Assembly: GCA_046593925.1 (NCBI GenBank)
Contig: JBKJQN010000061.1
Span: forward strand, 2,410-66,409
Length of the DNA stretch: 64,000 nt
Source of the DNA: Mycobacteriales bacterium
Lineage (GTDB): Bacteria; Actinomycetota; Actinomycetes; Mycobacteriales; SCTD01
Direction: 5' to 3'
The notes beneath the pieces were generated by a model. That model searched no databases and was not told the origin of the DNA. It worked only from the letters and a program-made list of their open reading frames with translations. The translations under genes were made by a program, and so were the position numbers. Below are positions 348 to 49,627 of this stretch, piece by piece (position 1 is the first letter of the stretch; every line of letters begins with the position of its first letter).

Positions 348-361
348 ATCGTGCAGGTCAG

Positions 362-448
362 CGGAGGGCGTGGGATTCGAACCCACGAGGAGCTTGCACC
401 CCTAGCGGTTTTCAAGACCGCCGCCATCGGCCACTAGGCGAGCCCTCC
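362..448 (-). tRNA. tRNA-Ser (anticodon UGA), class II with long variable arm; CCA not encoded
   Basis: The reverse complement folds as a cloverleaf. Acceptor GGAGGGC/GCCCTCC, anticodon stem GCGGT/ACCGC with loop CTTGAAA, long variable arm, T arm GTGGG-TTCGAAT-CCCAC, 87 nt. Confidence 0.93.
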
Positions 449-650
449 TGGAACGGCACCCAGTCTGCCGCAGTGGGCGAGGCGCCCTCGACCCAGCCGG
501 TCAGGCGCGGCCGGGAAACAGCGCGGCACCAGCCGTAAAGGGACCTTCGCCTCTGACCGTGGCATCCGAACCTGCATAGCGTTCGACGTGCGCCCCAGCG
601 CCCGACCAGCCCGCCGGTCGGCATCGGGCCGCAGCAAGGGGGACGGGGTC

Positions 651-878
651 GTGAACCAGAAGCACTACTCCCTGATGATCGCTCTGCTCGTGGTCGGGTC
701 CGTGCTGTTCTTGTCCGGCGCAACAGTCGGCGGGGCGCTGTTCCTGCTCTGGCCGCTCGCCTGCATGAGCATGATGTTCATGATGATGCGGGGCATGACG
801 GGCGGCACCCGGCGCGGAACCACGGACGCGCACGGCGGCATGACGCACTCGCACGACGACGCCCCCACGCATTCGTAG
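651..878 (+). CDS. DUF2933-like small membrane protein, Met/His-rich
   Basis: ORF 588..878. Internal GTG at 651 follows AAGGGGGA. Hydrophobic helices, then MSMMFMMMRGM and an HGGMTHSHDD tail. Sits directly upstream of a Cu-ATPase, as is typical for this family. Confidence 0.7.
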   Translation: MNQKHYSLMIALLVVGSVLFLSGATVGGALFLLWPLACMSMMFMMMRGMTGGTRRGTTDAHGGMTHSHDDAPTHS

Positions 879-933
879 CTGCCCGCGGCACCCGCGCGAT
901 ACGTGAACGGCACCGGCCGCTGAGGAGTTGGGC

Positions 934-3519
934 ATGAGCGCTGCACAGATCGTCGTCACCCTGGCCGGTCTGACAACGGCAGTCGGCCTGGGCTGGTTCT
1001 TCTTTCGCGCCCGGACGGCGACCGACGCCGTCGAGCGGGGCGGCGTCCAGCAGGCGCGGGTGGTGGTCAGGGGCGGCTACTCGCCCGACGTCATCAAGGC
1101 GCGCGCCGGTGTCCCGCTGCGCATCACGTTCGACCGGCAGGAGGCCGGCGACTGCAGCGCCCGGGTCGTCTTCGCCGACCTCGCCCAGAGCGCCTGGCTG
1201 GCTCCACGCGCCGAGACGACGGTCGAGCTGGCGCTGGACCGACCGGGACAGGTCGACTTCTCCTGCGGCATGAACATGATCCACGGGACGGTCATCGTCG
1301 AGGGCGACATCAGCGACCCGGTGGACGGCGTCGCCACGGCCGACAGCGCGTCCGGGGGCGCCGGTCTGCCTGGCAGCACCAGCGACGGGGCGATGGCGCC
1401 GACAGCTGCCGACACGCAGGACCGGGAGGCAGCCGGCCGCCGGCGGGAGGTCAAGGACCTGACCCGCAGGCTGGTGGTCGGTGCCGTCCTGACGGTTCCG
1501 GTGTTCGCCGCGGTGATGGCGGACGGCCTCGGCGCCGGCTGGGTGCCGAGCGTGCTGCTGGACCGGTGGGTCCAGCTCGCGTTGATCGCACCGGTGATGG
1601 GGTGGGTCGGCTGGCCGATCCACCGCACCGGCTGGCTCGCGCTCGCGCACCGGGCCGCAGACATGAATAGCCTCATCACTCTCGGTACGGTCGCGGCGTT
1701 TGGCTACTCGACGGTGGTGACCGTCACTCCGGGCCTGGTCCCCCAGGACGTATGGGGGGTCTACTTCGAGGCCGTTGGCGTCATCATCACGTTGATCATG
1801 CTCGGCCGGCTGCTGGAGGCCCGGGCGAAGGCCGGCACCGGTGAGGCAATCCGCCGGCTGATCGGCCTGCAGCCGGCGATCGCCCGGGTGCTGCGCGACG
1901 GCGTCGAGGTGGAGGTCGAGGTCGCGGAGGTCATCGCCGGTGACATCGTGACGGTCCGGCCCGGCGAGAAGATTCCCGTGGACGGCACGGTCGTGGACGG
2001 CCGGTCCAGCGTCGACGAGTCGATGGTGACCGGTGAGTCCATGCCGGTCGGCAAGGCCGTCGGCGACTCGGTCGTCGGGGCGACGCTGAACCAGACCGGC
2101 GCCTTCAGCATGCGCACGACGAAGGTCGGCCGTGACTCGACGCTCGCCCAGATCGTCCGCCTCGTGCAGGCCGCGCAGAGCTCCAAGGCACCGATCCAGC
2201 GGACCGTCGACGCGATCTCGCGCTACTTCGTGCCGGCGGTGCTGCTGGTCGCGATAGCGAGCTTTGTCATCTGGTACGACGTCGGCCCCTCGCCGGCCCT
2301 CACGTTCGCACTGGTGTCCGCGGTGGCCGTACTGATCATCGCCTGCCCCTGTGCGCTGGGGTTGGCGACCCCGCTGTCGATCATGGTGTCGACCGGCAAG
2401 GGCGCGGAAGCCGGCGTGCTGATCCGCTCCGCCGCCGCGCTGGAGACCGCGCACCGGCTCGACACACTGGTCCTGGACAAGACCGGGACACTGACCCGGG
2501 GCCACCCCGAGCTCACTGACGTCATGACGGTCGGCGAGCTCGGCAGGGCCGAGCTACTGAGCTTTGTCGCGGTGGCCGAGCGGCGCTCCGAGCACCCGCT
2601 CGCCGGTGCGCTGGTCGCCGGCGCCCGGGACGAGGGCATCGAGCTGGGCGAGCCGGACGCGTTCGACTCCGTCACCGGCATGGGCATCCTCGCGACGGTC
2701 CGCGGCCACCGGGTCCACATCGGCAATGCCCGGCTGCTCACCGACGTGGGCATCGACCCGGCTCCAATGGCGGCGACGGCTGAGTCCCTCGCCGCTGACG
2801 GCAAGACCCCCATGCTCGTCGCGGTCGACGGCCGGCCCGCCGGCATCGTGGCGGTCGCGGACCGCATCAAGGACGACGCCGCCGCGGCGGTCGCTGCGCT
2901 CAAGCACCGCGGGATCGTGGTTGTCATGCTCACCGGGGACAACCGGCGGACCGCCGAGGCCGTCGGGCGAGTCGTGGGGGTGGACCGGGTCCTGGCCGAG
3001 GTCCTGCCCGGTGACAAGGTCGCCGAGGTCCGGCGCCTGCAGGCTGACGGCCGACTCGTCGGGATGGTCGGGGACGGCATCAACGACGCCCCGGCCCTGG
3101 CCCAGGCCGACGTCGGCATCGCGATCGGCACCGGCACCGACGTCGCTATCGAGGCCGCAGACATCACCCTCATGTCCGGGGCACTCACCGGGCTGGTCAC
3201 AGCCATCGCCCTGTCCGGGGAGACGATGCGCAACATCCGCCAGAACCTGGTGTTCGCGTTCGGGTACAACGCGCTGGGCATCCCGCTCGCCGCCGGCGCG
3301 CTGTATCCGTTCGTCGGCCTGCGTCTGAGCCCGATGATCGCGGCTGCGGCGATGGCTGCGAGCTCGCTGTCCGTCGTCACGAACGCCAACCGGCTGCGCC
3401 GGTTCCAGCCCCCGCGGCTCGTCGCGACGCAGCGCCCGGAGATACCGCCGAGCACCGCCGTACCGGGCCGACCCGACCTGCCGGAGCCGGTCCCCGCCCG
3501 AACCCGCGCCGGCGCGTGA
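934..3519 (+). CDS. copA: Copper-translocating P1B-type ATPase with N-terminal cupredoxin-like domain instead of a CxxC HMA domain
   Basis: ORF 928..3519; ATG 934 follows GAGGAG. Motifs: GDCSARVVF...[14 protein letters not shown] (cupredoxin-like), TM CPC ([12 protein letters not shown]), [15 protein letters not shown]. Confidence 0.9.
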
Positions 3520-6335
3520 CCGGCTGGGACCCAGCGGGGAACGCGCCCGGCGTCACCGCGGTCTCCGCGCTGCGCGCACCGGTGCACGCCGCGGGTGTTG
3601 CCGAGGTCACCGCGCTGCTGTGCACCGACGCCGCCCGCGGGCTCGCGGCCGGGTCGGCGGCAGAGCGACTCCTCGAGGTCGGGCCGAACGAGCTCGACGG
3701 CCAGGGGAAGGCGGGCTGGGCCGGCATCCTGTGGGGCCAGCTCAGCTCACCCATGATCGTCCTGCTGGCGGCGGCCGGGCTGTTGTCCGCATTGCTCGGC
3801 GACGTCACGGAGGCGGTCGTCATCTGCGGCGTCGTCCTGCTCAACACCGGTATCGGCTTTCGGCAGGAGTACCGGGCGCAGGCCGCGATGGCGTCGCTGC
3901 AGGTTCTGGCAATCCCCACGGTGAGCGTGGTGCGGGACGGCCGGGTGACGGAGGTCGTGGCCCGCGAGCTCGTACCCGGCGACCTGGTCCGGCTGGAGGC
4001 CGGCGTCCGGGTGCCCGCCGACGGGCGCCTGGTCGAGGCGTACGCACTTCGTGTGGAGGAAGCCACGCTGACCGGCGAGTCGGTCCCCGCGGACAAGGGC
4101 CGCGAGCCGGTTGCCCTGACGGCGCCACTGGCCGAGCGGGCGTCGATGGCGTACGCGGGGACCAGCGTGGCTTCGGGCCGCGGGTCGATGCTCGTCACGG
4201 CCACCGGCATGCGGGCCGAGCTCGGCCGGATCGCCGGGCTGCTGCGGGGCGCCGACCCGGGCCGGACCCCGCTGCAGCGGCGGCTCGACGTGCTGGTCCG
4301 GCGGCTCGCCCTGGTCACCGGCGGCGTGGTGCTGGTGGTCACCGGACTGGGTGTCCTGCAGGGGCAGAGCTTCGACAGGCTCGTCCTGACGGCGGTCAGC
4401 CTGGCCATCGCGGCCATCCCGGAGAGCCTGCCGGCGGTGGTGACGATCACCCTGGCGCTCGGGGCCCAGCGGATGCTGCGGCGCCGCGCGCTGGTGCGGC
4501 ACCTGTACGCCGTCGAGACCCTCGGGTCGGTGACGACGATCTGCTCGGACAAGACCGGCACGTTGACCCAGAACCGGATGGTCGTCACGGCTCTGGAGAC
4601 CGCGGACGACCACCGCGTCGTCCCTCCTGAGGTGGGTGATGCCGACCCGCAGGGGCTCGACACCGCAGCACTGCGGCTGCTCGTCGTGGGTGCCATCTTG
4701 TGCAACGACACCGTGACGGGCGAGGACGGCGGGCTCACCGGTGATCCCACCGAGACCGCGCTCGTGGTGGCCGGCCGGCGGTACGGGATGGACAAGCAGT
4801 CGCTGGACGCGGCGTGGCGTCGGGTGGGGGAGCTGCCCTTCGACGCCGATCGCAAGCGCATGACCACCGTCCACGCCCTGCCGTCCGGGCCGGACGTAGC
4901 GCCCACAGGGTGCGGCCTGGCTGTCCTGCAGGACGCCCCAGGCGGCCGGGTGGCGTTCACCAAGGGTGCGCTGGACGGCCTGCTGGAGTGCTGCGACACC
5001 GTCCTGGTCGACGGCCGGCCCGTACCGCTGGACGCCGGACGCCTCGCCGCTGCCCGCGCGGCCGGGGAGCGCCTCGCGGCGGACGGCCTCCGCGTGCTCG
5101 GCGTCGCCATGCGCGTCTGGCCGGCATCGCTCGAGGTCGACCATGACCTGTCCGTTGAGTCGTCGATGACCCTGCTCGGCGTACAGGGGATGATCGACCC
5201 GCCGCGCAGCGAGGTCGCCGCGTCCGTTGCCCTGTGCCGGGCGGCCGGTGTCCGCGCCGTCATGATCACCGGGGACCACCCACTCACGGCCCGCGCAGTC
5301 GCCCGTGAGCTCGGCATCGCCGACGTCGGGGATCACATCGTCACCGGTGCCGAGCTGGCCGCCCAGGATGACGACGAACTCGTGGCGACGGCACGTTCGA
5401 CGTCGGTGTACGCACGGGTGTCGCCGCAGGACAAGCTGCGGGTGGTCGAGGCGCTGCAGCGCGACGGCGGCATCGTGTCGATGACCGGGGATGGGGTCAA
5501 CGACGCCCCCGCGCTGAAGCAGGCCGACATCGGCGTTGCCATGGGCATCACCGGGACCGACATCAGCAAGGAGGCCGCCGACGTCGTCCTGCAGGACGAC
5601 GACTTCTCGACGATCGTCGGTGCGGTCCGCGAGGGCCGCACCGTCTTCGACAACATCAGGAAGTTCATTCGCAACATCCTCAGTGGCAACCTCGCCGAGG
5701 TGGCGATCATGGTCCTCGCCCCGCTGATCGGCATGCCCATCCCGTTGCTGCCGCTGCAGATCCTCTGGCTGAACCTCGCCACCGACGGCCTGCCGGCCAT
5801 CGCGCTGGCCGTCGAACCCGCCGAGCCCGACATCATGCGGCGACCGCCGACCGCCCGGGGCGCGAGCCTGTTCGGTGCCGACGGTGGCCGCCTCATCCTG
5901 GTGCGGGGCACGGTGCTGACGGTGCTGACGCTGGTCCCGACGTACCTGCTGTGGCGGGCCGGCGACGCCGCCTGGCAGACGGTGTTGTTCACCTCGATCG
6001 CCTTCGCCGAGCTTGCGGGTGGCTTCGCCATGCGCTCCGAGGACCGCCCGCTCTGGCGCCTGGGAGCCTTCTCGAACCGGTCGCTGGTCGGAGCCGTGAT
6101 GCTGACCGTGACGCTGCAGGTGCTGCTGGTCACGGTCCCGCCGGTCCGTGGCGTCCTCGGGCTGCGGGCAATGGGGCAGGCGCACTGGCTGCTCAGCGTG
6201 GTCATCGCGATGGGCTACCTCGCGGCGATCGAGGCCGACAAAGCGCTACGCCGGCGCCCCCCGACCCCGAACGAGCCGAGCCGGGACGTTCGGCCCTGGC
6301 GACCGGACGAGCCGCGGTTAAAAGGTGCAGCATGA
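3516..6335 (+). CDS. P2-type cation-transporting ATPase (CtpF / Ca2+-ATPase-like)
   Basis: The GTG overlaps the copA stop (GTGA). Motifs: [40 protein letters not shown]. Long C-terminal TM bundle, no CPC motif. Confidence 0.88.
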
Positions 6336-6352
6336 GCATGACCAGCATGGAG

Positions 6353-6391
6353 AGCAGTTCCGGTGAGCAGTTCCGGTGAGCAGCTCCGGCC
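6353..6391. repeat. 13-bp tandem repeat x3 (GAGCAGTTCCGGT, GAGCAGTTCCGGT, GAGCAGCTCCGGC)
   Basis: Read directly. Starts 18 nt after the ATPase stop and is preceded by GCATGA-GCATGA-(CCA)-GCATGG iterations (6330-6350). Confidence 0.9.
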
Positions 6392-6692
6392 GGGTAGGCG
6401 ACGTGCCCGCGCCCGCCGACTGGCGGCTGCCCGCGCTGCTGCTGGACGGGGTGGTCGGGGTGGGCTACCTGGCGGCCGGCACGCTCGCTGGGGCCGGGAC
6501 GAGCTCGGCACGGGGGAGATGTGGAACTCCAACTCGGTCACCTCCTGGTCTCTGGAACGCAGCGGCCTGGACCCGCTGGCGGTCGGCGTGCCACCCGGCG
6601 GCAGAGCGCCCGGATGGCGCGCCGGGGTCGACGCTGCCCGCGGCCTGCCATGACCTGCCCCCTCGGGCGCGACGGGGTCTGAGCTCGGCGAC

Positions 6693-6708
6693 CGGGACCT
6701 TGGTCCCG
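6693..6708. promoter_or_regulatory. DosR/DevR (OsdR)-type box: CGGGACC-TT-GGTCCCG
   Basis: Perfect 7-bp inverted arms around a TT centre, about 85 nt upstream of the USP start codon. Close to the mycobacterial consensus TTSGGGACTWWAGTCCCSAA. Confidence 0.55.
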
Positions 6709-6790
6709 ATCCTCGACAGCCGTACGACCCTTCCGGCACCGCGCCGCGGGGGACACGATCGAGTTATCCGTCAGCCAGGAAGAGGACACC

Positions 6791-7708
6791 ATGCGCGAGA
6801 TCGTGACCGGGGTGGACCAGGAAGCAGGCCGCGTGCTGGAGCGAGCCCTGCTCGAGGGCGAGACCACCGGGCGGCCGGTCCGGGTCGTGCACGTGTGGTC
6901 GACACCGACCTGGGCGGGTGGCCCCAGCGGCGGCTACGACCTGCCCGCGTTCGAGGACAGCGCCCGTTGGGCCAAGGACATCGCCGACGACCAGCTCGCG
7001 AAGGCGCTGCTGCAGCGCAGTTCCGATGTCGCCGTCAGCACCAGCACGCAGGCGGCGCAGGGCGACCCCGGCGACGTGTTGGCCCGCGCCGGTACCCATG
7101 CCGGCCTGGTCGTCGTCGGTGGCCGCAGCCACGGGGCCATGCTGAGCGCCGTGCTGGGCTCGGCGACCGCGCATGTCCTGCACTACTCAAGCGGCCCCGT
7201 CATGGTTGTCCCCGCCGGCGCCGCCCCCGGCTCCTACCGCCGGGTCGTCGTCGGCGTGGACGACTCGGACTGCTCCAGGGCGGCGCTGCGCTGGGCGCTG
7301 GACGCCGGTCGCCGCCACCGGTGCCCGGTCGTGGTGCTGCACGCGCTGGCGATGACCCCGTCGCCGGTGCCGATGTCGGCGCAGTTCACCGACGCCCACG
7401 AGGAGGCCGAGATCCGGGCGTGGCTGCAGGGCGAGGTCGACAGCGCGACGGGCGTCGCAGCCAACGTCGAGGTGACGACCGGGGCCCGTGACGGGGCGCC
7501 CTCGGCCGTCCTGCTGGGCGAGGCCGGCCCCGAGGACCTGCTCGTGGTCGGCTCGCGGGGCCGCGGCGGCTTCCTGGACCTGGTGCTGGGCTCGGTCGCG
7601 ACGCAGTGCTCCCAGCACGCCCGCGGGGTCGTCGTCGTCGTCCGTGCCGGGCAGGCTCGCTTGGCCGACGAGCCCGACCTTGCCGCGGCCACGGGGGACC
7701 ACGCCTGA
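6791..7708 (+). CDS. Universal stress protein with two tandem Usp domains
   Basis: Two repeats of the Usp pattern: IVTGVDQE...LVVVGGRSHGAMLSAVLGSATAHVLHYSSGPVMVVP and VVVGVDDSD...LLVVGSRGRGGFLDLVLGSVATQCSQHARGVVVVV. RBS GGAAGAGGA. Confidence 0.9.
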   Translation: MREIVTGVDQEAGRVLERALLEGETTGRPVRVVHVWSTPTWAGGPSGGYDLPAFEDSARWAKDIADDQLAKALLQRSSDVAVSTSTQAAQGDPGDVLARAGTHAGLVVVGGRSHGAMLSAVLGSATAHVLHYSSGPVMVVPAGAAPGSYRRVVVGVDDSDCSRAALRWALDAGRRHRCPVVVLHALAMTPSPVPMSAQFTDAHEEAEIRAWLQGEVDSATGVAANVEVTTGARDGAPSAVLLGEAGPEDLLVVGSRGRGGFLDLVLGSVATQCSQHARGVVVVVRAGQARLADEPDLAAATGDHA

Positions 7709-7737
7709 TGTCCTTCCTCGGGTAGGCACCCGCACCG

Positions 7738-8306
7738 GTGCACCTCGGAAAGGGGCCGACGCCGGCCCTGACGGCCCACCGGGTATCCCGACGCGATGTG
7801 CTGAAGGCCTTCGGCGTCGGAGGCGCCGCTGTGGTCGTCGTCGGTACGGGGGCGCCGAGCTACCGGGTGTTCGACAGCGGCGCCTTGGATCCGGGCAGCC
7901 GCGCGGCGTGCGACCCGTGGGACCACTGGCACGACCCGGGCCCGCTCGGGGCGATCGGCGCCGCTGTGCTGGCAGCGAGCCCGCACCGCACCCAGCTGCC
8001 GCCGTTCCACGTCACGGCCGGTGCGATCGACGTACACGTCGTCGCGTCGCGCAATCTCGGCTCCTGCTCGCCGGGCCGGCCCCGCCGCTCCTGCGCCAGG
8101 CCCCGGCGCGCTCGGCATCGAGATAGGCAGGCCGTTCCGCCCTGGCTATCGAGGTACGCCGGGCTGCCGGCGGCGACGCCGGCTTCCTGACCGAGATGCT
8201 CGTCGCCGGTGCGGACCAGCGGCCGGACGTGCCGACCGTGACACCCGCCCGGCGCGGTGCGCTGACGATGCTGCTGCCCCTGGACCGGCCGGAGAGCAGT
8301 CTGCGG
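7738..8306 (+). pseudogene. Remnant of an Acg-family (nitroreductase-like) FMN oxidoreductase with Tat-like signal; truncated and frame-broken
   Basis: N-terminus SRRDVLKAFGVGGAAVV...DPWDHWHDPGPLGAIGAAVLAASPHRTQLPPFHV..IDVHVVASRNLG fits the family. Similarity then scatters over three frames (e.g. GALGIEIG, FLTEMLVAG). Only about 190 codons of space remain before crcB. Confidence 0.45.
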
Positions 8307-8723
8307 TCAGAGCGCAGTCAGGCCGAGCCCGACGGCGGCCGCGACGGTCGTGACCGCGAGGGTGCCCAGCGCATTCCACGCGGCGAGGTCCACCCGACCG
8401 TCCTGGGCGAGCCTGACGCTGGTGACCGACACCGCCGAGAAGGTTGTGAAGCCACCGCAGAAGCCGGTGCCGAGCGCGACCCGCAGCAGATCCGGGGCGC
8501 CGCGGAACAGCACCAGCCCGGTGAGCAGGCCGAGCAGCAGACTGCCCAGCGTGTTGACCAGCAGCGTCGGCCAGGGGAAGACCGGCGGCCGCCGGACCAG
8601 CAGGGCGCCGTCGAGGACGACCCGGGCGACCGCGCCCAGCCCGCCCGCCAGCCCGACCGCGACCGTCAGGCCCACCGATACCTGCCCCGGCGCTCCGGCG
8701 GCCGCAACGAGCCCGGAACTCAC
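8307..8723 (-). CDS. crcB: Fluoride channel CrcB/FluC, downstream copy
   Basis: C-terminal part of ORF 8307..9020: FPWPTLLVNTLGSLLLG...GTGFCGGFTTFSAVS. The GTG at 8723 overlaps the stop of the upstream crcB (GTGA). Confidence 0.88.
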   Translation of the reverse strand: MSSGLVAAAGAPGQVSVGLTVAVGLAGGLGAVARVVLDGALLVRRPPVFPWPTLLVNTLGSLLLGLLTGLVLFRGAPDLLRVALGTGFCGGFTTFSAVSVTSVRLAQDGRVDLAAWNALGTLAVTTVAAAVGLGLTAL

Positions 8724-9160
8724 TGAGTTGGCCTGGGGACGAGCGCGGCGCCGAGCAACAGCCCGGCAGCCCCGGCGGCCAGGCCAGTGAGCGCGCTGCC
8801 CGTGCCGTAGGCGACTGCGAGCGCCGCGCGGTTGTCGCGCACCAGCAGCACCACCTCGACGGCGAGCGAGGAGTACGTGGTGAAGGCGCCGAGCACGCCG
8901 GCACCAAGTGCCAACCGCAGGGCGCGCCGGCGGCCTTCGTCGGGACCGCGCCTGGCCAGCCCCTCGAGCAGCACGCCCAGCAGCAGGGCGCCGGGAAGGT
9001 TGGCGAGCAGGGTCGCCCACGGCAGCGCGCCGGCTGGCACCGTGCGGATCAGGGCCCAGCGGAGCAGGGCACCCGCGCTGCCGCCGATGAGGACCAGGAC
9101 CAACAGACGTGGCTGCAGATGAGCCGGTTTCGGGTCAACGCGCTGCGGTTGGACGGGCAC
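8720..9160 (-). CDS. crcB: Fluoride channel CrcB/FluC, upstream copy
   Basis: C-terminal part of ORF 8720..9571: LPWATLLANLPGALLLG...GAGVLGAFTTYSSLA. The in-frame GTG at 9160 is my best start; the start is uncertain. Confidence 0.82.
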   Translation of the reverse strand: MPVQPQRVDPKPAHLQPRLLVLVLIGGSAGALLRWALIRTVPAGALPWATLLANLPGALLLGVLLEGLARRGPDEGRRRALRLALGAGVLGAFTTYSSLAVEVVLLVRDNRAALAVAYGTGSALTGLAAGAAGLLLGAALVPRPTQ

Positions 9161-9302
9161 GAGACATCCTCGCCCACCAGCCTCGCAGCGGGGCCGGAGG
9201 CGTACTCGCCACCCGATCGGCGGACAAGAGCGGCGTTCAGCCGGTCGACATGGACGTGGACCGGCCCCCGCCTCCTCGCCCTTCGCCGTTTCTGGAGCCC
9301 CT

Positions 9303-10271
9303 GTGACCACCTCCCGCCGCCTGCTCGCCACCCTGCTGACCCTCCCGCTCCTGGGCGCCGTCGCCTGGGCCGCTCCCGCCGGCGCCACGCCCGGTGCCGC
9401 CGACAGCGGCGCTGGGGCCGTGGCTACCCACAGTGCCCCGGCGCTCGCCGGTGCCTCTGTCGCCGGCAAGACCCTGTTCGGTGTGTCGCTGTCCCGGCAG
9501 GGATCGGAGACCCGCGCTGAGACGGTCGCCCGCAATGTGCGTACGTTCGGCTCGCTGCCGGTCGTCCGCATCTACGACGGCAAGCCGCCGACCACCTGGG
9601 CGGCCAACAGCTCTCTCTCGACGCTGCCCGCCGGCACGTCGGTGATCTACACCTTCTCGGTACCGGACATGACCGCTGCAGCCAACGGCGCGTACGACGC
9701 CAACGTCGCGTCGATGCTGGCCAGCCGCCCAGCCGGCAGCATCGTGTGGATGGGCCTGCAGCACGAGCCGGAGGGCCACGTCGCCGCCGGCGAGTTCACG
9801 GCAGCGCAGTACCGCGCGGCCACCTCCCACGTCGCGAAGGTGATCAAGGCCTACGGCGGGATCCCGACCACGGTGCTCACCGGCTCCACCGCCTACGCGG
9901 CAAGGGGACAGGGCTACCTGGACTACTACAGCCCCGACATCGACGTCCTCGCTTGGGACGCCTACAACAGCGGTCAGAGGAAGCCAGGCACCACTTACAG
10001 GGACGCCTCGCGCTTCCTTACCCCGGTCCTGCGGATCGCGGCAGAGACCGGCAAGCAGTACGGCTGGGCCGAGTTCGGGGCGCCGTGCATCGTCACCGAC
10101 CCCAGCTGCGCCGAGCGGTCCCGTTGGCTGCCGGTGCTCGGGCAGGGCCTGGCCGACGGCGGGGCGCAGTTCGTGTCGTACTGGAACCACCTGTCGCTCA
10201 ACGGGACCACTGACTACAGCCTCCTCGACGCAGCGTCGGTAGCAGCCTGGAAGGGCCTGATCGCCCGCTGA
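9303..10271 (+). CDS. Secreted TIM-barrel glycoside-hydrolase-like protein (GH26-like; function tentative)
   Basis: Signal peptide MTTSRRLLATLLTLPLLGAVAWAAPAGA. Candidate catalytic motifs GLQHEPEG and GWAEFG spaced as in clan GH-A enzymes. Confidence 0.6.
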   Translation: MTTSRRLLATLLTLPLLGAVAWAAPAGATPGAADSGAGAVATHSAPALAGASVAGKTLFGVSLSRQGSETRAETVARNVRTFGSLPVVRIYDGKPPTTWAANSSLSTLPAGTSVIYTFSVPDMTAAANGAYDANVASMLASRPAGSIVWMGLQHEPEGHVAAGEFTAAQYRAATSHVAKVIKAYGGIPTTVLTGSTAYAARGQGYLDYYSPDIDVLAWDAYNSGQRKPGTTYRDASRFLTPVLRIAAETGKQYGWAEFGAPCIVTDPSCAERSRWLPVLGQGLADGGAQFVSYWNHLSLNGTTDYSLLDAASVAAWKGLIAR

Positions 10272-10347
10272 CCGGCCGTGTTCGGGTCGTCCACAGCTTC
10301 GCCTGAACGCCGGTCGGCACGCGGCCGAGCGGGCTAGGGTCCGCCGC

Positions 10348-12393
10348 ATGCACCGGAGCACCCTGCGCCATTCCCGCGCCCGGCTCGTGCGGGCGACCGC
10401 CCTGGTGGCGGTTGCCCCGCTCGTGCTGCTGCTCACGGCCGCCGGGGCGGGCGCCTCGACGGTGTCGCAGGACGGCCTGCCGAGCGCGGTGCCGTCCGCG
10501 GCGACGCCGAACCTCAACGACGGCAACGTCTTTGCAATCACCCAGGTGGGCTCGAGGATGCTGCTGGGCGGCTCGTTCACCAGCGTCAGCCCGCCCGGCA
10601 GCATCAATGGCGCGGGCGCCGTGCCGCGACGCGGCGTGCTGGCTTTCGACGCGGGCAGCGGCGCCGTCGACGGGGGCTTCCACCCGCAGCTGGACGGCGA
10701 CGTCCAGGGCCTCGCGGCCGGCCCGACGCCCGGCACCGTCTACGTGGCCGGCACCTTCAACACCGTCAACGGCGCGGTGGCCAAGAGCATCGCGCTGCTC
10801 GACCTGTCCAACGGCCAGCTCGTGTCGGGCTTCTCGCCCGCCCCGATGAACGGCTCCGGCCAGGCCGTGCAGCTGGTCGGCGGCCATCTGATCCTGGCGG
10901 GCACCTTCACCACGGTCGGCGGCTCGGCGCACGGCGGGATCGTCTCGCTGGACCCGCGCTCCGGTGCGGTCGAGAGCTACCTGGGCATCCAGCTGGCCGG
11001 CCACCACAGCTTCACCGGCTTGCCGGGCCAGTCCAAGGCCCCCGTCGGCGGCCGAAAGATGGACATCAGCGCCGATGGAAGCCAGCTCGTCCTGGTCGGC
11101 AACTTCACCACCGCCAACGGGATGCCCCGTGACCAGATCCTGCGTCTCAACCTGGGTGCGGCCGCCGGCACCGTCGACGGCAGCTGGTCCACCCTGGCCT
11201 TCACGGCGATCTGTGGCCCCAAGTACGACACTTACGTACGTGACATCAGCTACTCACCGGACGGTTCGTACTTCATTGTCGCCACGACCGGCAGCGGGGG
11301 TCCCGGCGCGACCAACAATGACGGCAGCCGGGCGTTGTGCGACTCCGCGTCGAGGTTCAACAACGCGGCCAACGGGTCCAACGTCAAGCCGGCCTGGATC
11401 GACTACACCGGCAACGACTCGCTGGAGTCGGCGCTGTCCACCGGCGCCGTCGTCTACGTCGGCGGTCACCAGCGCTGGCTCAACAACGCCAACGGCAAGG
11501 ACAATGCCGGCGCCGGCGCCGTGCCCCGTCCCGGCATCGCCGCGCTCGACCCGGTCACCGGCCTGCCGCTGAGCTGGAACCCCGGCCGCAACCCCCGCGG
11601 CGCCGGGGCGTACGCGCTCTACGCCAGCCCGCAGGGCGTCTATGTCGGTAGCGACACCACCTTCATCGGCAACCGGCAGTACTACCGCGGCCGCATCGCC
11701 GCCTTCCCGCTGGCCGGCGGCAGCTCACTGCCGTCGACCGCGACCGCCGTGCTACCGGGCACCGTGTTCTCCGTCGGCCCGCTGACCGGGCCGCGCGACG
11801 CTCTGCGGGCCCGGAGCTTCGACGGCTCTGCCGCCGGCGCGGCGGGCAACGGCCCCGCCAGCTCGACCACCTGGAGCCAGGCCCGCGGGGCGGTGCTGAT
11901 CGGCAACCAGTTGTTCTACGGCTGGTCCGACGGCACGCTGCGCCAGCGGACGCTGTCCGGCGCCGCTCTCGGCAACCCGCAGTCGATCGACCCGTACAAC
12001 GACCCGTTCTGGTCGACCGTCCCGACCGGCAGCCGAGGCACCGTCTACCGGGGCACGGTCCCCACGCTGTACGGCGCGCCGATGAGGAGCGTCACCGGGA
12101 TGGTGTACGCCGCGGGGCGGCTGTACTACAGCATCGCGGGGCAGCCCCGGCTGAGGTCGCGGGCCTTCACCCCGGAGTCCGGCATCCTCGGGGCGACGGA
12201 GACCGTCGAGGGAGGATCGGTCGACCTGTCCGGGATCGCCGGGATGTTCCTGTCCGCGCAGACCTTGTACTACGCCGCGGCAAACGGCTCGCTGCACGCC
12301 GTGCCGTTCGCCCAGGGCTCGCCGACCACGGCAGGCGACAGGGTCGCCAACTCGACCACGAACTGGCGGGCCCACGGGCTGTTCCTGGGCTAG
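10348..12393 (+). CDS. Large secreted repeat (beta-propeller-like) protein, paralogue of 49628..51610
   Basis: Signal peptide. Recurring blade-like units (V.QVG.R.LLGG.FT.V; LVLVGNFTTANG; VYVGGHQRWLNN). Clear collinear similarity to the second copy, e.g. GIAALDPVTGLPLSWNPGRNPRG vs AIAALDPANGLPLSWNPSRDQRG. Confidence 0.75.
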   Translation: MHRSTLRHSRARLVRATALVAVAPLVLLLTAAGAGASTVSQDGLPSAVPSAATPNLNDGNVFAITQVGSRMLLGGSFTSVSPPGSINGAGAVPRRGVLAFDAGSGAVDGGFHPQLDGDVQGLAAGPTPGTVYVAGTFNTVNGAVAKSIALLDLSNGQLVSGFSPAPMNGSGQAVQLVGGHLILAGTFTTVGGSAHGGIVSLDPRSGAVESYLGIQLAGHHSFTGLPGQSKAPVGGRKMDISADGSQLVLVGNFTTANGMPRDQILRLNLGAAAGTVDGSWSTLAFTAICGPKYDTYVRDISYSPDGSYFIVATTGSGGPGATNNDGSRALCDSASRFNNAANGSNVKPAWIDYTGNDSLESALSTGAVVYVGGHQRWLNNANGKDNAGAGAVPRPGIAALDPVTGLPLSWNPGRNPRGAGAYALYASPQGVYVGSDTTFIGNRQYYRGRIAAFPLAGGSSLPSTATAVLPGTVFSVGPLTGPRDALRARSFDGSAAGAAGNGPASSTTWSQARGAVLIGNQLFYGWSDGTLRQRTLSGAALGNPQSIDPYNDPFWSTVPTGSRGTVYRGTVPTLYGAPMRSVTGMVYAAGRLYYSIAGQPRLRSRAFTPESGILGATETVEGGSVDLSGIAGMFLSAQTLYYAAANGSLHAVPFAQGSPTTAGDRVANSTTNWRAHGLFLG

Positions 12394-12462
12394 CGCAGCG
12401 GACAGGGCCGATCGAGCCGGGAACCCCCCGCTAGCCTCCCGGGCCTACCTGGAGGAGGCGAC

Positions 12463-14375: not shown

Positions 14376-14515
14376 CGCGGTCGGCCTGCTCGGCAGCAGG
14401 CGGCGAAGCGAACGCGGGCTCACGGTGGTCCTCCGGGGTGGGTGCGGGACGATCGACCCAGTCTCGCGCACCTGGGCGCGGATCGGCCCGGCGACGGGTA
14501 CCGGGAGGGGTTGTC

Positions 14516-22518: not shown

Positions 22519-23027
22519 GTGACCTATCCGGTTGACGCAGTCCGGCCGCGCCCGCAGGACCGGGAGCCGAACACCGAGGACACCCGAGGGGACGAGGCCG
22601 AGACCGTCGCCCTCCTCGCTGGGTTGGCCGGGCAGCGGGCCGTTCTGGAGCTGGCCGTGGGCACGGGACGGATCGGCCTTGCCGCTGGCAGCGGCCGGGG
22701 TGCCGGTGGACGGCATCGAGCTGGCCCCGGGACCTGGTGTACCTGGTCTTCAACACCATCGGCAATCTGCCCGCGCAGGACGACCAGGTCCGGTGCTGCC
22801 AGAACGCCGCCCGGCACCTCGACGACGACGGGGTGTTCGACCTGGAGCGCCGGGTGCCGGCCGCACCACCGGAGCTCGACCTGACGGCCGGCATCGCCGG
22901 GCTCCGGCCGCGCGACCGGTGGGGTGGCTGGGAGGCGGAGCCGTTCACGGCGACACGTCAGCGTCCACGAACGCGGGCCGGCCTGACCCGAACCCCGCCT
23001 CAGGCCGAGGGCACCCGCAGGACGTAG
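22519..23027 (+). pseudogene. Class I SAM-dependent methyltransferase gene with frameshifts and an internal deletion
   Basis: Motif I LELAVGTGRIG is in one frame and LPLAAAGVPVDGIELAPG in a second. That is joined directly to DLVYLVFNTIGNLPAQDDQVRCCQNAARHLDDDGVF in a third. About 40 residues expected between these blocks are absent. Confidence 0.6.
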
Positions 23028-23722
23028 CCCACGCCGCGCAGCGTGTGCAGCAGCCGGGGCTCGGTGGTGTCAACCTTGCGGCGCAGGTAGGAGACGTAGG
23101 ACTCCACGACGTTGGCCTCGCCGCCGAAGTCGTAGTGCCAGACGTGGTCAAGGATCTGGGCCTTGCTGAGGACCCGGCCGGGGTTCTGCATGAAGTACCG
23201 CAGCAGGTTGAACTCTGTCGGGGAAAGCGGCACCGACGTACCGGCTTTCCAGACCTCGTGGCTGTCCTCGTCGAGCTCGACGTCGGCGAACACCAGCCGT
23301 GAGCCGGCAGGCTGGGCGGCCGCCCCGCCGCGGCGCAGCACCGCCCGGATCCGGGCGACCACCTCCTCCAGGCTGAACGGCTTGGTGACGTAGTCGTCGC
23401 CACCGAGCGTCAGGCCGGTCACCTTGTCCTCGGTGCCGTCCTTCGCTGTGAGGAACAGCACCGGCACCCGGGTGCCTTCGCCCCGCAGCCGGCGGACGAC
23501 CTCGAACCCGTCGAGCTCGGGCATCATCACGTCCAGCACGACGAGGTCGGGCTTGAAGCTGCGGGCCGTGGTCAGTGCCTGTTGGCCATTGATGGCGGTA
23601 GCGACCTCGAAGCCGTTGAAGCGCAGCGCGACGCTCAGCAGCTCCAGGATGTTCGGCTCGTCGTCCACGACCAGCAGGCGTGCCTCGGCGGTGGCCACGC
23701 GTGCTCCTGTGCTCGTCGTCAT
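23000..23722 (-). CDS. OmpR/PhoB-family response regulator
   Basis: LLVVDDEPNI...DLVVLDVMMPELDGF...LFLTAK receiver domain. Winged-helix C-terminus LSPTEFNLLRYF...TLRGVGYVLR. ATG at 23722 preferred. Confidence 0.9.
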   Translation of the reverse strand: MTTSTGARVATAEARLLVVDDEPNILELLSVALRFNGFEVATAINGQQALTTARSFKPDLVVLDVMMPELDGFEVVRRLRGEGTRVPVLFLTAKDGTEDKVTGLTLGGDDYVTKPFSLEEVVARIRAVLRRGGAAAQPAGSRLVFADVELDEDSHEVWKAGTSVPLSPTEFNLLRYFMQNPGRVLSKAQILDHVWHYDFGGEANVVESYVSYLRRKVDTTEPRLLHTLRGVGYVLRVPSA

Positions 23723-23755
23723 GAAACGCAGCATGGCGCCCCGGGCTGGCAGTGC

Positions 23756-23772
23756 GCTGTACGTCCGCTGTC
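23756..23772. promoter_or_regulatory. Direct repeats GCTGTA / GCTGTC with 11-bp period in the RR-HK divergent intergenic region
   Basis: Read directly (gctgtacgtccgctgtc). The one-helical-turn period is the geometry used by OmpR-family regulators. Confidence 0.3.
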
Positions 23773-23837
23773 AAAGCCCTGCGCGGCGCCCAGCCCGCTC
23801 ACAGCCTGCTCCCAGGCCTACGCGGCACACTCGCCGT

Positions 23838-25268
23838 GTGAGGAGGCCTGCCCGCCCCGGCCCACGGGGGCGCCTCGCGCTGGTGCCACTGCGCGTCACG
23901 CTGGTGGCGTCCGTGCTCGTCCTCGTGGCGATCGGGCTGGCCCTGTCCGGCGTGGCTGCGACGACCGTCCTGCGCAACTACCTGCTGGAACGGCTCGACA
24001 GGGACCTCGTCGGCGCGGTGGCGGCGGCGTCGCCCGGCCTGCGGGACGGGCCGGGGCGACCGCGGCCGCGCGGCGACGTCAGCCAGCTCAACCGCTTCTA
24101 CATCCTCGTGACCGACCCGGGCGGCACGCCGGACGAGGTGCCGCTCGGTGTTCCGGCGCCGAAGCTGCCGGCGGACCCGCCGGTCGGCAGGCCCTTCAGC
24201 ACCGGCGCCGTGTCCGGCGACGGCCACTGGCGGGCCATCGTGTACGCCGCCCCGAACGGGAGCACCGTCGTCTTCGGGTCCCCGCTGTCGGCGGTGGACG
24301 ACCCGGTCGCCAACCTGGTCAAGACCGAGGCCGTCGTGGCGCTCGCTGTCCTGGTGCTGCTCGCCGGGGTGGCGTACGGCGTCGTCCGCACCAGCCTGCG
24401 ACCGTTGCGCGAGGTGGAGCGGACCGCTGCGGCCATCGCCGGGGGTGACCTGTCGCTGCGGGTGCCCCGCCAGGACGACCGCACCGAGGTGGGCCGCCTC
24501 GCGTTGGCGTTCAACTCCATGCTGGGCCGGATCGAGGGGGCGTTCGGGGCGCAGGCAGCGTCGGAGGCGGCTGCCCGGGAGTCCGAGGCCCGGCTGCGCC
24601 GGTTCGTCGCGGACGCCAGCCACGAGCTGCGGACCCCGCTGACCAGCATCCGCGGTTTCGCTGAGCTGTACCGGCAGGGCGGCGTACCGGTCGGTGCGGA
24701 CCTGGACCGGGTGATGGGCCGGGTCGAGGGCGAGGCGAGGCGGATGGGGAACCTGGTCGAGGAGATGCTGCTGCTGGCCCGGCTGGACCAGCAGCGCCCG
24801 CTCGACAGCGTCCGTGTCGACCTGCTGCAGCTGGCGGCCGACGCGGTGCACGACGCGCAGGCGGTCGCGCCGGACCGCACGATCCGGCTGGAGGTCGCAC
24901 CGCACTGCGCTGCGCCCGTCGTCATGGGTGACGAGGCCCGGCTCCGGCAGGTGCTCGTCAACCTGCTGGGCAATGCCGTCACGCACACGCCACCCGGCAC
25001 CGCGGTGGCCGTCCGGCTGCACACCGCGCACCGGCAAGCGGTCCTGGAGGTCGCCGACCACGGCGCCGGGCTGACCCCGGGACAGGCCGGGAAGGTGTTC
25101 GAGCGCTTCTACCGCGTCGACACGGCCCGCACCCGGGCCAGCGGCGGCAGCGGGCTGGGCCTGTCGATCGTGCGGGCCGTGGTCGAGGCGCACGGCGGTC
25201 GGGTGGGCGTACGAAGCCCGCCCGGCGAGGGTGCGACCTTCGTGGTCGAGCTGCCGCTCGCGGTGTAG
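23838..25268 (+). CDS. Sensor histidine kinase (two TM segments, HAMP, HisKA, HATPase_c)
   Basis: Within ORF 23424..25268, start at GTG 23838. H-box FVADASHELRTPLTSIRGF, N-box LVNLLGNAVTHTP, G-boxes VADHGAGL and GGSGLGLSIV. Confidence 0.9.
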   Translation: MRRPARPGPRGRLALVPLRVTLVASVLVLVAIGLALSGVAATTVLRNYLLERLDRDLVGAVAAASPGLRDGPGRPRPRGDVSQLNRFYILVTDPGGTPDEVPLGVPAPKLPADPPVGRPFSTGAVSGDGHWRAIVYAAPNGSTVVFGSPLSAVDDPVANLVKTEAVVALAVLVLLAGVAYGVVRTSLRPLREVERTAAAIAGGDLSLRVPRQDDRTEVGRLALAFNSMLGRIEGAFGAQAASEAAARESEARLRRFVADASHELRTPLTSIRGFAELYRQGGVPVGADLDRVMGRVEGEARRMGNLVEEMLLLARLDQQRPLDSVRVDLLQLAADAVHDAQAVAPDRTIRLEVAPHCAAPVVMGDEARLRQVLVNLLGNAVTHTPPGTAVAVRLHTAHRQAVLEVADHGAGLTPGQAGKVFERFYRVDTARTRASGGSGLGLSIVRAVVEAHGGRVGVRSPPGEGATFVVELPLAV

Positions 25269-49322: not shown

Positions 49323-49550
49323 GTGGGGGTGGAAGCGGAAGGCTGGCTCGTGGCCAGCGGACAGCAGACGTCGGGGCGCCCGAGATGGCGAGTCCTCAGT
49401 CAGCACGAGGTGCGCAGGATCGTGCTGTGGTGCGGTGGCTGCGACGCCGAGCTGCCCCTGCCGACGGAGGACCCGGCCTTCGAGCATCGGCTGGCAGGGT
49501 TCTTCGAGGATCACGCGACGTGCCGGACGACGCTGACCATGCCGGCGTGA
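49323..49550 (+). CDS. Small hypothetical Cys-containing protein (possible zinc-ribbon-like)
   Basis: Tail of ORF 49164..49550, start at GTG 49323 or 49329. Motifs: LWCGGCDAELPLP...FEDHATC. Third codon positions are mostly G/C, consistent with real coding. Confidence 0.4.
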   Translation: MGVEAEGWLVASGQQTSGRPRWRVLSQHEVRRIVLWCGGCDAELPLPTEDPAFEHRLAGFFEDHATCRTTLTMPA

Positions 49551-49627
49551 GGGCCGGCCACCCGCCGTGGAGGTTAACCTTGCCCGGACGAACACGGGTG
49601 TCGGCCCGGTCGGATCGAGGAGGATCA

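What the first reader, a model, noticed from the sequence alone, without database searches (positions are those of the whole stretch)
6693..6708. Near-perfect DosR/OsdR-type box in front of a dormancy-like gene set
CGGGACC-TT-GGTCCCG has perfect 7-bp arms and lies about 85 nt upstream of a tandem-domain USP gene. That gene is followed 30 nt later by an Acg-type nitroreductase remnant and preceded by a CtpF-like P2-ATPase. USPs, Acg and CtpF are classic members of the mycobacterial DosR regulon, and the Streptomyces OsdR regulon uses a very similar motif. No NarL-type DevR/DevS pair lies in this window, so the regulator would act in trans.
Basis: partly seen in the sequence, partly recalled or inferred. 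Interest (0 to 1): 0.6.

Follow-up and report, generated by a model that had tools for sequence, protein, structure and literature searches.

The report
DosR-type operator upstream of USP gene
The palindrome is real and is most likely a binding site for a DevR/DosR-type hypoxia regulator in front of a stress-protein gene, which makes it an ordinary new example of a well-known bacterial dormancy switch, here in a partly eroded locus.

Summary
CGGGACCTTGGTCCCG sits at 6693-6708, 83 nt upstream of an intact tandem-domain USP gene (6791-7708).

Evidence that it is a DevR/DosR/OsdR-type operator:
- A weight matrix built from 35 sites in other loci ranks it first in the window (18.1 bits). About 0.01 such hits are expected per window.
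- An unbiased scan of inverted repeats upstream of 57 related USP genes puts GGGAC-N4-GTCCC first (p 7e-9).
- USP orthologues in relatives carry such boxes 77-134 nt upstream.
- In three more distant lineages those USP genes lie 3-6 kb from true DevR and DevS/DosT orthologues.

- An equally strong box at 6282-6297.
- A degenerate proximal box at 6716-6731.
- Erosion of the locus. The Acg gene is cut to about 115 of 430 residues. An upstream operon has collapsed to a remnant.
- The two P-type ATPases belong to a 5.8-kb segment that the nearest relatives lack, and no convincing box precedes them.

No DevR/DevS gene lies in the window, and the source genome could not be retrieved, so the regulator remains inferred. 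This is a new member of a known kind, of low to moderate interest.

The parts
6693..6708 (.). Box A: CGGGACCTTGGTCCCG, a perfect DevR/DosR/OsdR-type palindrome and the likely primary site. It lies at -98 to -83 from the USP ATG.
   Evidence: Sequence read. It scores 18.1 bits and is rank 1 in the window, with 0.01 expected per shuffle. The 13-nt core GGGACCTTGGTCC is identical in relatives whose USP is 86% identical.
6716..6731 (.). Box B: ACAGCCGTACGACCCT, a degenerate proximal (secondary-type) box whose centre is 23 bp from that of box A.
   Evidence: It scores 7.1 bits, rank 23. It keeps the G and C that Chauhan 2011 found essential in each half-site. It occupies the same position (core start at -74) as the proximal boxes of the orthologues in L004, L010, L014 and L015, which start at -74 to -80. 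In L004 the equivalent sequence is ACCGACGTTCGGCCCT.
6282..6297 (.). Box 1: CGGGACGTTCGGCCCT, a second strong DevR-type box. It was formerly the operator of an upstream operon. It now lies inside the last 18 codons of the ATPase ORF and 35 nt before the remnant's ATG at 6332.
   Evidence: It scores 17.2 bits with the S. coelicolor OsdR matrix, the best hit in the window, and 18.0 bits with the lineage matrix, rank 2. A stretch of 23 nt is identical to the relatives, where it precedes a 94/146-aa gene.
6303..6308 (.). Half-site CCGGAC, 21 bp downstream of the left half of box 1. It reads CGGGAC in the relatives.
   Evidence: Seen in the alignment. The right half does not match, and the 16-mer scores -9 bits.
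6791..7708 (+). Tandem-domain universal stress protein gene, intact, and the likely regulated target.
   Evidence: Pfam Usp matches twice, E 2e-39. GC3 is 0.93. Orthologues exist at 86%, 63%, 56% and 54% identity.
7738..8190 (+). Remnant of an Acg-family nitroreductase gene: a TAT-like signal plus the first part of the domain. The rest has been deleted.
   Evidence: tblastn aligns 7735-8079 with residues 31-145 of the 430-aa L004 protein at 75% identity. That protein passes NF047509. blastn homology stops at 8061.
6332..6653 (+). Collapsed remnant of the operon that box 1 precedes in relatives: pieces of a 146-aa and a 203-aa gene. The amino-acid permease and SulP/STAS genes are missing. A 13-nt unit is repeated about 3 times at 6352-6389.
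   Evidence: blastn finds the pieces 6281-6351, 6416-6480 and 6488-6649 in L004-L008. The alignment is and the translation.
3516..6335 (+). P2-type (SERCA/PMR1-like, CtpF-class) cation ATPase. It is context only and is not shown to be box-controlled here.
   Evidence: Pfam Cation_ATPase_N, E1-E2, Hydrolase and Cation_ATPase_C all match. The best NCBIfam hits are below their cut-offs. The gene lies in the segment 480-6281, which the nearest relatives lack.
928..3519 (+). Copper-type P1B ATPase with a cupredoxin-like N-terminal domain. Its end overlaps the start of the P2 ATPase gene by 4 nt.

Best explanation
Box A is an operator for a DevR/DosR (OsdR)-family response regulator that is encoded elsewhere in the genome. 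The proposed mechanism is as follows. Under hypoxia, NO, CO or redox stress, a heme-GAF kinase of the DevS/DosT type phosphorylates the regulator. A regulator dimer binds the strong palindrome through the GGGAC/GTCCC half-sites. It then recruits a second dimer to the weak proximal box B, 23 bp downstream, and activates transcription of the USP gene, which was formerly a usp-acg operon. A second strong box at 6282-6297 belonged to an upstream operon that has since collapsed. A transcript started there would now run through a 350-nt remnant into the same USP gene. What is shown: the sequence match, its statistical rarity, its conservation, family-wide enrichment of the motif upstream of this USP family, and DevR and DevS/DosT orthologues beside USP orthologues in relatives. 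What is inferred: presence of the regulator in this genome, actual binding, activation rather than repression, the promoter position, and the inducing signal.
For: (1) Motif. The site matches M. tuberculosis TTSGGGACTWWAGTCCCSAA (from my own knowledge) and S. coelicolor AGGGCCGATCGGCCCT. Published OsdR sites include CGGGACCTTCGGCCCT (SCO5979, with EMSA-bound intergenic probe) and AGGGACCTTCGGCCCC (the USP gene SCO0167 and narG2). (2) Rarity. The lineage matrix gives 18.1 bits for box A and 18.0 for box 1. They are ranks 1 and 2 in 64 kb, lie 411 bp apart, and 0.01 and 0.015 such hits are expected per shuffled window. (3) Unbiased test. Among all 5-mer inverted repeats with spacers of 0-8, GGGAC-N4-GTCCC is the most enriched in the 200 nt upstream of 57 related USP genes, with the window excluded: 12 against 51 elsewhere, 9.9-fold, p 6.7e-9 over 2,623 tests. 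The second is GGACC-N2-GGTCC, which is the same motif shifted by one base. The box pattern GGG[A/C]C-N4-G[G/T]CCC with at most 1 mismatch has a density of 1.68 per kb upstream against 0.36 per kb elsewhere. (4) Orthologous promoters in L010, L012, L014, L015, L002 and L003 have boxes at -77 to -134. (5) Regulator in relatives. L010/L011, L012 and L014 encode a response regulator plus a GAF-GAF-HisKA_3 kinase 3-6 kb from the USP orthologue. The best PDB hit of the L010 regulator is M. tuberculosis DevR 3c3w, E 5e-77, against 138 bits for the next hit. Its recognition helix EKTVKNYVS is identical. The kinase GAF-A domain matches DosT and DevS at E 1e-42. (6) The closest relatives keep three box clusters in 5 kb, upstream of the 94/146-aa gene, the amino-acid permease and usp-acg. 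No regulator gene is called on the parts of their contigs that were read, which reach about 10 kb downstream but only 3-5 kb upstream of the USP gene. This is consistent with control in trans. (7) Tandem strong-plus-weak boxes are the hallmark of M. tuberculosis DevR promoters.
Against: No DevR/DevS gene lies in the 64-kb window, and the source genome could not be retrieved. The S. coelicolor-only matrix scores box A at just 5.3 bits, because of C and G at positions 7 and 10. The bare core pattern is not rare in this G+C-rich DNA. In the 86% relatives the right arm is weakened to GTCCT. The box A to box B spacing is 23 bp, not the 21 bp shown to be optimal in M. tuberculosis. No sigma-70-like promoter was found. 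The locus is eroding, with acg truncated and the upstream operon lost, which could mean relaxed selection on the whole regulon. The training sites for the lineage matrix were chosen with a consensus-derived pattern, so the high scores are partly built in.
Confidence: 0.74

Rival explanations
1. The box is a relic operator. It was a DevR site in the ancestor, but in this lineage the regulator has been lost or the locus is being dismantled, so the box no longer controls anything.
For: Several deletions have hit the same locus. Acg is cut to about 115 of 430 residues. The upstream operon is reduced to fragments with a 13-nt repeat that shifts the frame. The permease and SulP genes are gone. No regulator gene lies in the window.
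Against: The USP gene is intact with strong codon bias. Box A is a perfect palindrome here, better than in the relatives. Box 1 is identical over 23 nt, although 4-fold degenerate sites in the USP gene are only 67% identical. DevR orthologues of 75-86% identity are very common in this clade.
Confidence: 0.12
2. The box is the operator of a different palindrome-binding regulator, such as another LuxR/NarL-family or TetR-family protein, that happens to resemble the DevR motif.
For: The regulator is not identified in this genome. Short G+C-rich palindromes are used by many regulators.
Against: The same motif flanks devR itself and acg genes in relatives. It is also the top enriched repeat upstream of this USP family. 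The DevR recognition helix is identical to that of M. tuberculosis.
Confidence: 0.06
3. The box acts as an RNA stem-loop, either a factor-independent terminator or stabiliser for the upstream gene, or a 5' UTR structure, rather than as a DNA site.
For: In relatives the box begins 12 nt after the SulP stop codon. Their two C-to-T changes would still allow G-U pairs.
Against: No T-run follows, and the scan found no terminator-like site. Folding energy is not better than shuffles (z -0.9 in the window, 0.0 in L004), and in L004 the hairpin is not part of the minimum-energy fold. Orthologous boxes conserve GGGnC and GnCCC but not arm complementarity. No Rfam family matches.
Confidence: 0.04
4. The box is a chance palindrome in G+C-rich DNA.
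For: The 10-base core is expected 0.32 times per window, and the degenerate pattern GGG[A/C]C-N4-G[G/T]CCC 2.1 times.
Against: The only two perfect matches in 64 kb lie within 411 bp, just upstream of the USP gene. The matrix-based expectation is 0.01 per window. The core is conserved in relatives.
Confidence: 0.03

Closest known systems
M. tuberculosis DevR (DosR) 'Dev boxes', for example at Rv1996-ctpF, Rv2623 and acg-hspX (Chauhan et al. 2011, PMC3177182)
   Same: Both are inverted repeats with GGGAC/GTCCC half-sites and a 4-nt centre. Both pair a strong primary box with a poorly conserved adjacent box. Both lie tens of nt upstream of USP and Acg-type nitroreductase genes. The proximal box lies 26-93 nt from the start codon in M. 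tuberculosis, and box B ends 59 nt before the ATG here.
   Different: Positions 7 and 10 are C and G here, against T and A in M. tuberculosis. The T/A-rich flanks are absent. The centre-to-centre spacing is 23 bp, against 21 bp. The regulator is not encoded nearby. The acg partner gene is truncated.
S. coelicolor OsdR (SCO0204) binding sites (Urem et al. 2016, PMC5069765)
   Same: Both are 16-nt palindromes of the form nGGGnC-N4-GnCCCn. The first 9 nt are identical to the site listed for SCO5979 (CGGGACCTTCGGCCCT), and the SCO5978-SCO5979 intergenic probe was bound by OsdR in EMSA. Typical positions of -80 to -100 from the start codon match. USP and nitroreductase genes are targets.
   Different: The S. 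coelicolor consensus prefers GGGCC-GATC-GGCCC. A matrix built only from those sites scores box A at 5.3 bits but box 1 at 17.2 bits. In S. coelicolor most targets cluster around osdRK, which is not the case here.
DevR-DevS/DosT islands of uncultured Frankiales/Mycobacteriales genomes
   Same: They contain the same USP orthologue family, the usp-acg unit, the same box type with GGGACC and GACCC half-sites, and recurrent neighbours such as a P2 ATPase, XFP phosphoketolase and acetate kinase.
   Different: Those loci carry the regulator and kinase. The window and its nearest relatives do not within the sequence available, and the window has lost several of the island's genes.

Membership tests
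DevR/DosR/OsdR operator (Dev box) | Inverted repeat nGGG(A/C)C-N4-G(T/G)CCCn, with the inner G and the C of each half-site present. These two bases are essential for binding in M. tuberculosis. | tested here: met
   CGGGAC-CTTG-GTCCCG.
DevR/DosR/OsdR operator (Dev box) | Statistically unusual match to a matrix built from independent sites. | tested here: met
   18.1 bits, rank 1, 0.01 expected per window. However, the S. coelicolor-only matrix gives just 5.3 bits.
DevR/DosR/OsdR operator (Dev box) | Located in the promoter region of a typical regulon gene (USP, Acg nitroreductase). | tested here: met
   The box ends 82 nt before the ATG of a tandem USP gene, which is followed by an acg remnant.
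DevR/DosR/OsdR operator (Dev box) | Tandem arrangement with at least one further box in helical phase (about 21 bp centre to centre). | tested here: inconclusive
   Box B lies at 23 bp, scores 7.1 bits and keeps the essential G and C. Its position is conserved in orthologues. The spacing is 2 bp off the M. tuberculosis optimum. Spacings of 22, 23 and 25 bp occur in relatives.
DevR/DosR/OsdR operator (Dev box) | Conservation or enrichment of the motif upstream of orthologous genes. | tested here: met
DevR/DosR/OsdR operator (Dev box) | Cognate DevR-type regulator and heme-GAF kinase encoded in the same genome. | not testable with these tools
   Both are absent from the window. The source contig and genome could not be retrieved. 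Both are present beside USP orthologues in L010, L012 and L014.
DevR/DosR/OsdR operator (Dev box) | Binding by the phosphorylated regulator, and induction by hypoxia or NO. | not testable with these tools
   This needs EMSA or footprinting and expression data.
Acg family FMN-binding oxidoreductase (NF047509), for ORF 7738-8190 | Full-length match to the family model above its cut-off. | tested here: not met
   The window ORF matches only a TAT signal. The full-length orthologue in L004 scores 222 bits against a cut-off of 199. The window keeps only the equivalent of residues 31-145, so it is a remnant and not a functional member.
CtpF-like P2 ATPase as a member of the DevR regulon | P2-type domain set (Cation_ATPase_N, E1-E2, HAD, Cation_ATPase_C). 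| tested here: met
   The NCBIfam Ca-ATPase equivalogs are below their cut-offs, for example 636 bits against 798.
CtpF-like P2 ATPase as a member of the DevR regulon | A Dev box upstream of the gene or its operon. | tested here: not met
   There is no hit above 10 bits between 1 and 6281. The only candidate is AGGGACCTTCGCCTCT at 539-554, at 10.0 bits and within chance range. The segment is absent from the nearest relatives. P2 ATPases do neighbour USP genes in 7 other loci.

The most novel reading that the evidence does not exclude
The locus may be a snapshot of a DevR-controlled island being rewired. After deletions and the arrival of a copper/P2-ATPase cassette next to tRNA-Ser, the strong box 1 lies inside the last codons of the ATPase gene. 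A regulator bound there could couple the two units. It could block or terminate ATPase-operon transcription under hypoxia. Alternatively, metal-induced read-through could feed into the USP gene. Together with box A, this would give the USP gene two DevR-dependent inputs.
Probability: 0.1. Interest if true: 0.4.

Novelty: new member of a known kind. Interest (0 to 1): 0.27.

Why it matters
The finding extends the DevR/DosR/OsdR dormancy circuit, which is known from mycobacteria and Streptomyces, to an uncultured Frankiales-like soil actinobacterium. The usp-acg unit there keeps its operator even when the regulator is encoded elsewhere and parts of the island decay. That is useful for regulon reconstruction in metagenome-assembled genomes, and it gives a small case study of regulon erosion. 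It does not change what is known about the mechanism.

Tried and rejected
- Retrieving the source contig or genome by exact protein look-up failed three times. The scan of GTDB species representatives returned only three Micromonosporaceae loci at about 30% identity.
- The S. coelicolor-only matrix under-scored box A at 5.3 bits. I replaced it with a matrix from lineage sites and recorded the circularity caveat.
- A scan restricted to strictly perfect palindromes had too few counts to be useful.
- The ORF 6363-6653 was tested as a possible small gene downstream of box 1. It has no Pfam match, even as a frame-corrected composite. It proved to be fused fragments of two genes seen intact in relatives.
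- The terminator or RNA-hairpin reading was rejected.
- I tried to link a DevR orthologue to the same metagenomes as the nearest relatives. The contigs carrying P0158 come from other samples, so no link could be made.
- The candidate third box at 14445-14460 scores 13.8 bits, which is within the range of shuffle maxima. Its arm spacing is not kept in relatives, so I did not include it.
- No -10 or -35 elements could be assigned with confidence.

Full report
**Observation.** The window reads CGGGACC-TT-GGTCCCG at 6693-6708, a 16-nt palindrome with perfect 7-bp arms. The next gene downstream starts at ATG 6791, preceded by the ribosome-binding site GGAAGAGGA. It encodes a 305-aa protein with two Pfam Usp domains (E 2e-39) and has GC3 of 0.93. 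The window is 72.5% G+C. The bare core GGGACN4GTCCC occurs once, against 0.32 expected, and 27 of 100 shuffles have at least one. The degenerate form GGG[A/C]C-N4-G[G/T]CCC occurs twice, against 2.1 expected. The core alone is therefore not significant, and the case has to rest on position, flanking bases and comparison with other loci.

**Surroundings.**
- Upstream lie a copper-type P1B ATPase (928-3519, with a cupredoxin-like N-terminal domain) and a P2-type cation ATPase (3516-6335). The two genes overlap by 4 nt.
- Downstream, an ORF starts 29 nt after the USP stop codon, at 7738. It matches only a TAT signal in Pfam and NCBIfam.
- Two crcB genes follow on the minus strand.
- The rest of the window encodes ordinary metabolism and one OmpR-type two-component system at 23000-25268. 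There is no NarL-type regulator and no GAF kinase. tblastn with DevR- and DevS-like proteins from relatives finds nothing in the window.

**Closest relatives.**
- The USP protein is in the database from an NCBI contig of 78.6 kb, but that contig could not be fetched.
- Metagenome contigs with an 86% identical USP (L004-L009) are syntenic with the window. Their gene order is tRNA, then a 94/146-aa gene, a 203/210-aa gene, an amino-acid permease, SulP/STAS, USP, a 430-aa protein, two crcB genes and a Na/H exchanger.
- The 430-aa protein passes NCBIfam NF047509, 'Acg family FMN-binding oxidoreductase' (222 bits, cut-off 199). Window 7735-8079 aligns with its residues 31-145 at 75% identity and then homology stops.

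**How the window differs from those relatives.**
- Window 480-6281, which holds both ATPases and a small Met/His-rich membrane ORF at 651-878, is absent from the relatives. It sits next to tRNA-Ser at 361-448.
- The two small genes survive only as fused fragments between 6281 and 6653, with a 13-nt unit repeated about three times at 6352-6389.
- The permease and SulP genes are missing.
- Window 9181-12416 is extra relative to the relatives.

**A second and a third box.**
- A matrix built from the 25 published S. coelicolor OsdR sites scores box A at only 5.3 bits. It also reveals CGGGACGTTCGGCCCT at 6282-6297, at 17.2 bits, the best hit in the window.
- This 'box 1' is identical over 23 nt to the relatives, where it lies just upstream of the first small gene. 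In the window it falls inside the last 18 codons of the ATPase ORF, and the ATPase stop codon overlaps the old ATG at 6332.
- Between box A and the USP gene lies ACAGCCGTACGACCCT at 6716-6731. The relatives have ACCGACGTTCGGCCCT at the same place.
- In the relatives box A reads TGGGACCTTGGTCCTG, so the 13-nt core is unchanged.
- For scale, 4-fold degenerate sites of the USP gene are 67% identical between the two lineages, and the USP intergenic region is 77% identical.

**More distant orthologues.**
- L010/L011 (63% USP identity), L012 (56%, a Frankiales MAG) and L014 (54%) each encode a Response_reg+GerE regulator and a GAF-GAF-HisKA_3 kinase 3-6 kb from the USP orthologue. They also encode Acg-type nitroreductases, further USPs, CBS proteins, XFP phosphoketolase, acetate kinase and, in L014, a P2 ATPase.
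- L015 has a USP-USP-P2 ATPase operon next to cydAB.
- The best PDB match of the L010 regulator is M. tuberculosis DevR (3c3w, E 5e-77, 261 bits, against 138 bits for the next hit). Its recognition helix EKTVKNYVS is identical. From my own knowledge, this helix holds the DNA-contacting residues Lys179, Lys182 and Asn183.
- The kinase GAF-A domain matches DosT and DevS at E 1e-42.
- DevR orthologues of 75-86% identity are very common in this clade.

**Boxes in those loci.**
- Boxes of the type GGG(A/C)C-N4-G(G/T)CCC lie in the devR-acg and devR-usp intergenic regions: L010 at 6711 and 6733, L012 at 15754 and 15779, and CGGGACCAAAGACCCG in L097.
- They also lie upstream of the USP orthologues, at -132 and -77 in L010, -116 in L012, -134 and -78 in L014, and -121 and -80 in L015. 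Three tandem boxes occur in L003.
- The proximal box keeps its position, with its core starting at -74 to -80. Box B of the window is its most degenerate version.
- In the nearest relatives, the three best matrix hits in 16 kb all lie in the 5 kb upstream of the USP gene. One is a 23-bp-spaced pair in front of the permease.

**Statistics.**
- A matrix from 35 sites outside the window scores box A at 18.1 bits and box 1 at 18.0 bits. They are ranks 1 and 2 in the window, with 0.01 and 0.015 hits expected per shuffled window. Box B scores 7.1 bits, rank 23. The training sites were picked with a consensus-derived pattern, so this test is partly circular.
- Two tests are less circular. In 50 distant tandem-USP loci from metagenomes, the box pattern GGG[A/C]C-N4-G[G/T]CCC with at most 1 mismatch is 4.6-fold denser in the 200 nt upstream than elsewhere, and perfect boxes are 14-fold denser.
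- In an unbiased scan of every 5-mer inverted repeat with spacers 0-8, GGGAC-N4-GTCCC is the most enriched repeat upstream of 57 USP genes, with the window excluded (12 against 51, 9.9-fold, p 6.7e-9, 2,623 tests). GGACC-N2-GGTCC is second.

**Mechanism.**
- Published work shows that OsdR~P binds M. tuberculosis Dev boxes and S. coelicolor sites such as CGGGACCTTCGGCCCT, which lie mostly 50-100 nt upstream of USP, nitroreductase and nar genes.
- Every M. tuberculosis DevR promoter has two to four tandem boxes. A conserved primary box nucleates cooperative binding to weak neighbours. One G and one C per half-site are essential, and helical phasing matters.
- Box A followed by box B fits this 'primary-secondary' design, although the spacing is 23 bp rather than 21 bp.
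- I therefore infer activation of the USP gene by a DevR-type regulator encoded elsewhere. The promoter itself was not found.

**Rivals.**
- An RNA hairpin or terminator is unlikely. There is no T-run, folding is no better than shuffles, the hairpin is not kept in the fold of the relatives, and no Rfam family matches.
- Chance is unlikely given the position, the matrix score and the conservation.
- The main alternative is a relic operator in an eroding locus. This cannot be excluded without the genome.

**The ATPase.**
- P2 ATPases neighbour tandem USP genes in seven other loci, at 37-47% identity to the window's enzyme. From my own knowledge, this echoes the Rv1996-ctpF pair of M. tuberculosis.
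- In this window, however, the ATPase belongs to an inserted cassette. The only candidate box before that cassette is weak (539-554, 10 bits). Its membership of the regulon is not supported here.

**Verdict.** This is a genuine DosR/OsdR-type operator, probably still in use, in front of a USP gene. It is accompanied by a second strong box and a weak proximal box, in a dormancy island that has lost several genes. It is a new member of a known kind.

Noticed in passing
window 480-6281, with tRNA-Ser at 361-448 (-): A 5.8-kb segment is absent from the nearest relatives and sits right beside a tRNA-Ser gene. It carries a small Met/His-rich membrane ORF (651-878), a copper-type P1B ATPase with a cupredoxin-like rather than HMA N-terminal domain, and a P2 ATPase. 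Its right-hand junction falls inside the ATPase C-terminal tail, at box 1.
   Followed up: partly
window 6352-6389: A 13-nt unit, GAGCAGTTCCGGT, is repeated about three times in the remnant of the first small gene. The relatives have a single related copy, and the repeat breaks the reading frame.
   Followed up: partly
window 9181-12416: An extra segment relative to the nearest relatives lies between crcB and the Na/H exchanger gene. It holds two genes (9303-10271 and 10348-12393), the second with DUF5122 beta-propeller repeats. A similar DUF5122 gene lies at 49385-51610.
   Followed up: no
window 14445-14460: CGGGACGATCGACCCA scores 13.8 bits and is the third-best matrix hit. It lies in the 95-nt divergent region between a zf-UBP-like gene (-) and a HAD hydrolase gene (ATG 14517). 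In relatives one base is missing, so the arm spacing is not kept. It is within chance range.
   Followed up: partly
window 539-554: AGGGACCTTCGCCTCT has a perfect left half-site but scores only 10 bits. It lies about 100 nt upstream of the small ORF that heads the ATPase operon. It is not significant alone, and no comparative data exist because the segment is unique to the window.
   Followed up: partly
L004 2044-2082 (and the same region in L005-L008): In the nearest relatives a pair of boxes 23 bp apart (CGGGACTTTCGTCCTG and CGGGACCTCGGGCCAT) sits directly in front of the amino-acid permease-SulP/STAS genes. These transporters would thus join the putative regulon there. The whole segment is deleted in the window.
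   Followed up: partly
window about 8300-9300 (-): Two adjacent crcB fluoride-channel genes are present, but no fluoride riboswitch or other Rfam family reaches the gathering score upstream of them.
   Followed up: partly
window 59947-60816: A 289-aa regulator combines an N-terminal XRE-type HTH (HTH_3/HTH_31) with a complete TetR_N plus TetR_C_24 module. It lies next to paaK- and paaA-like genes. A protein with two HTH domains is an unusual fusion. The Frankiales locus L012 also places a TetR gene and paa genes just after its DevRS island.
   Followed up: no
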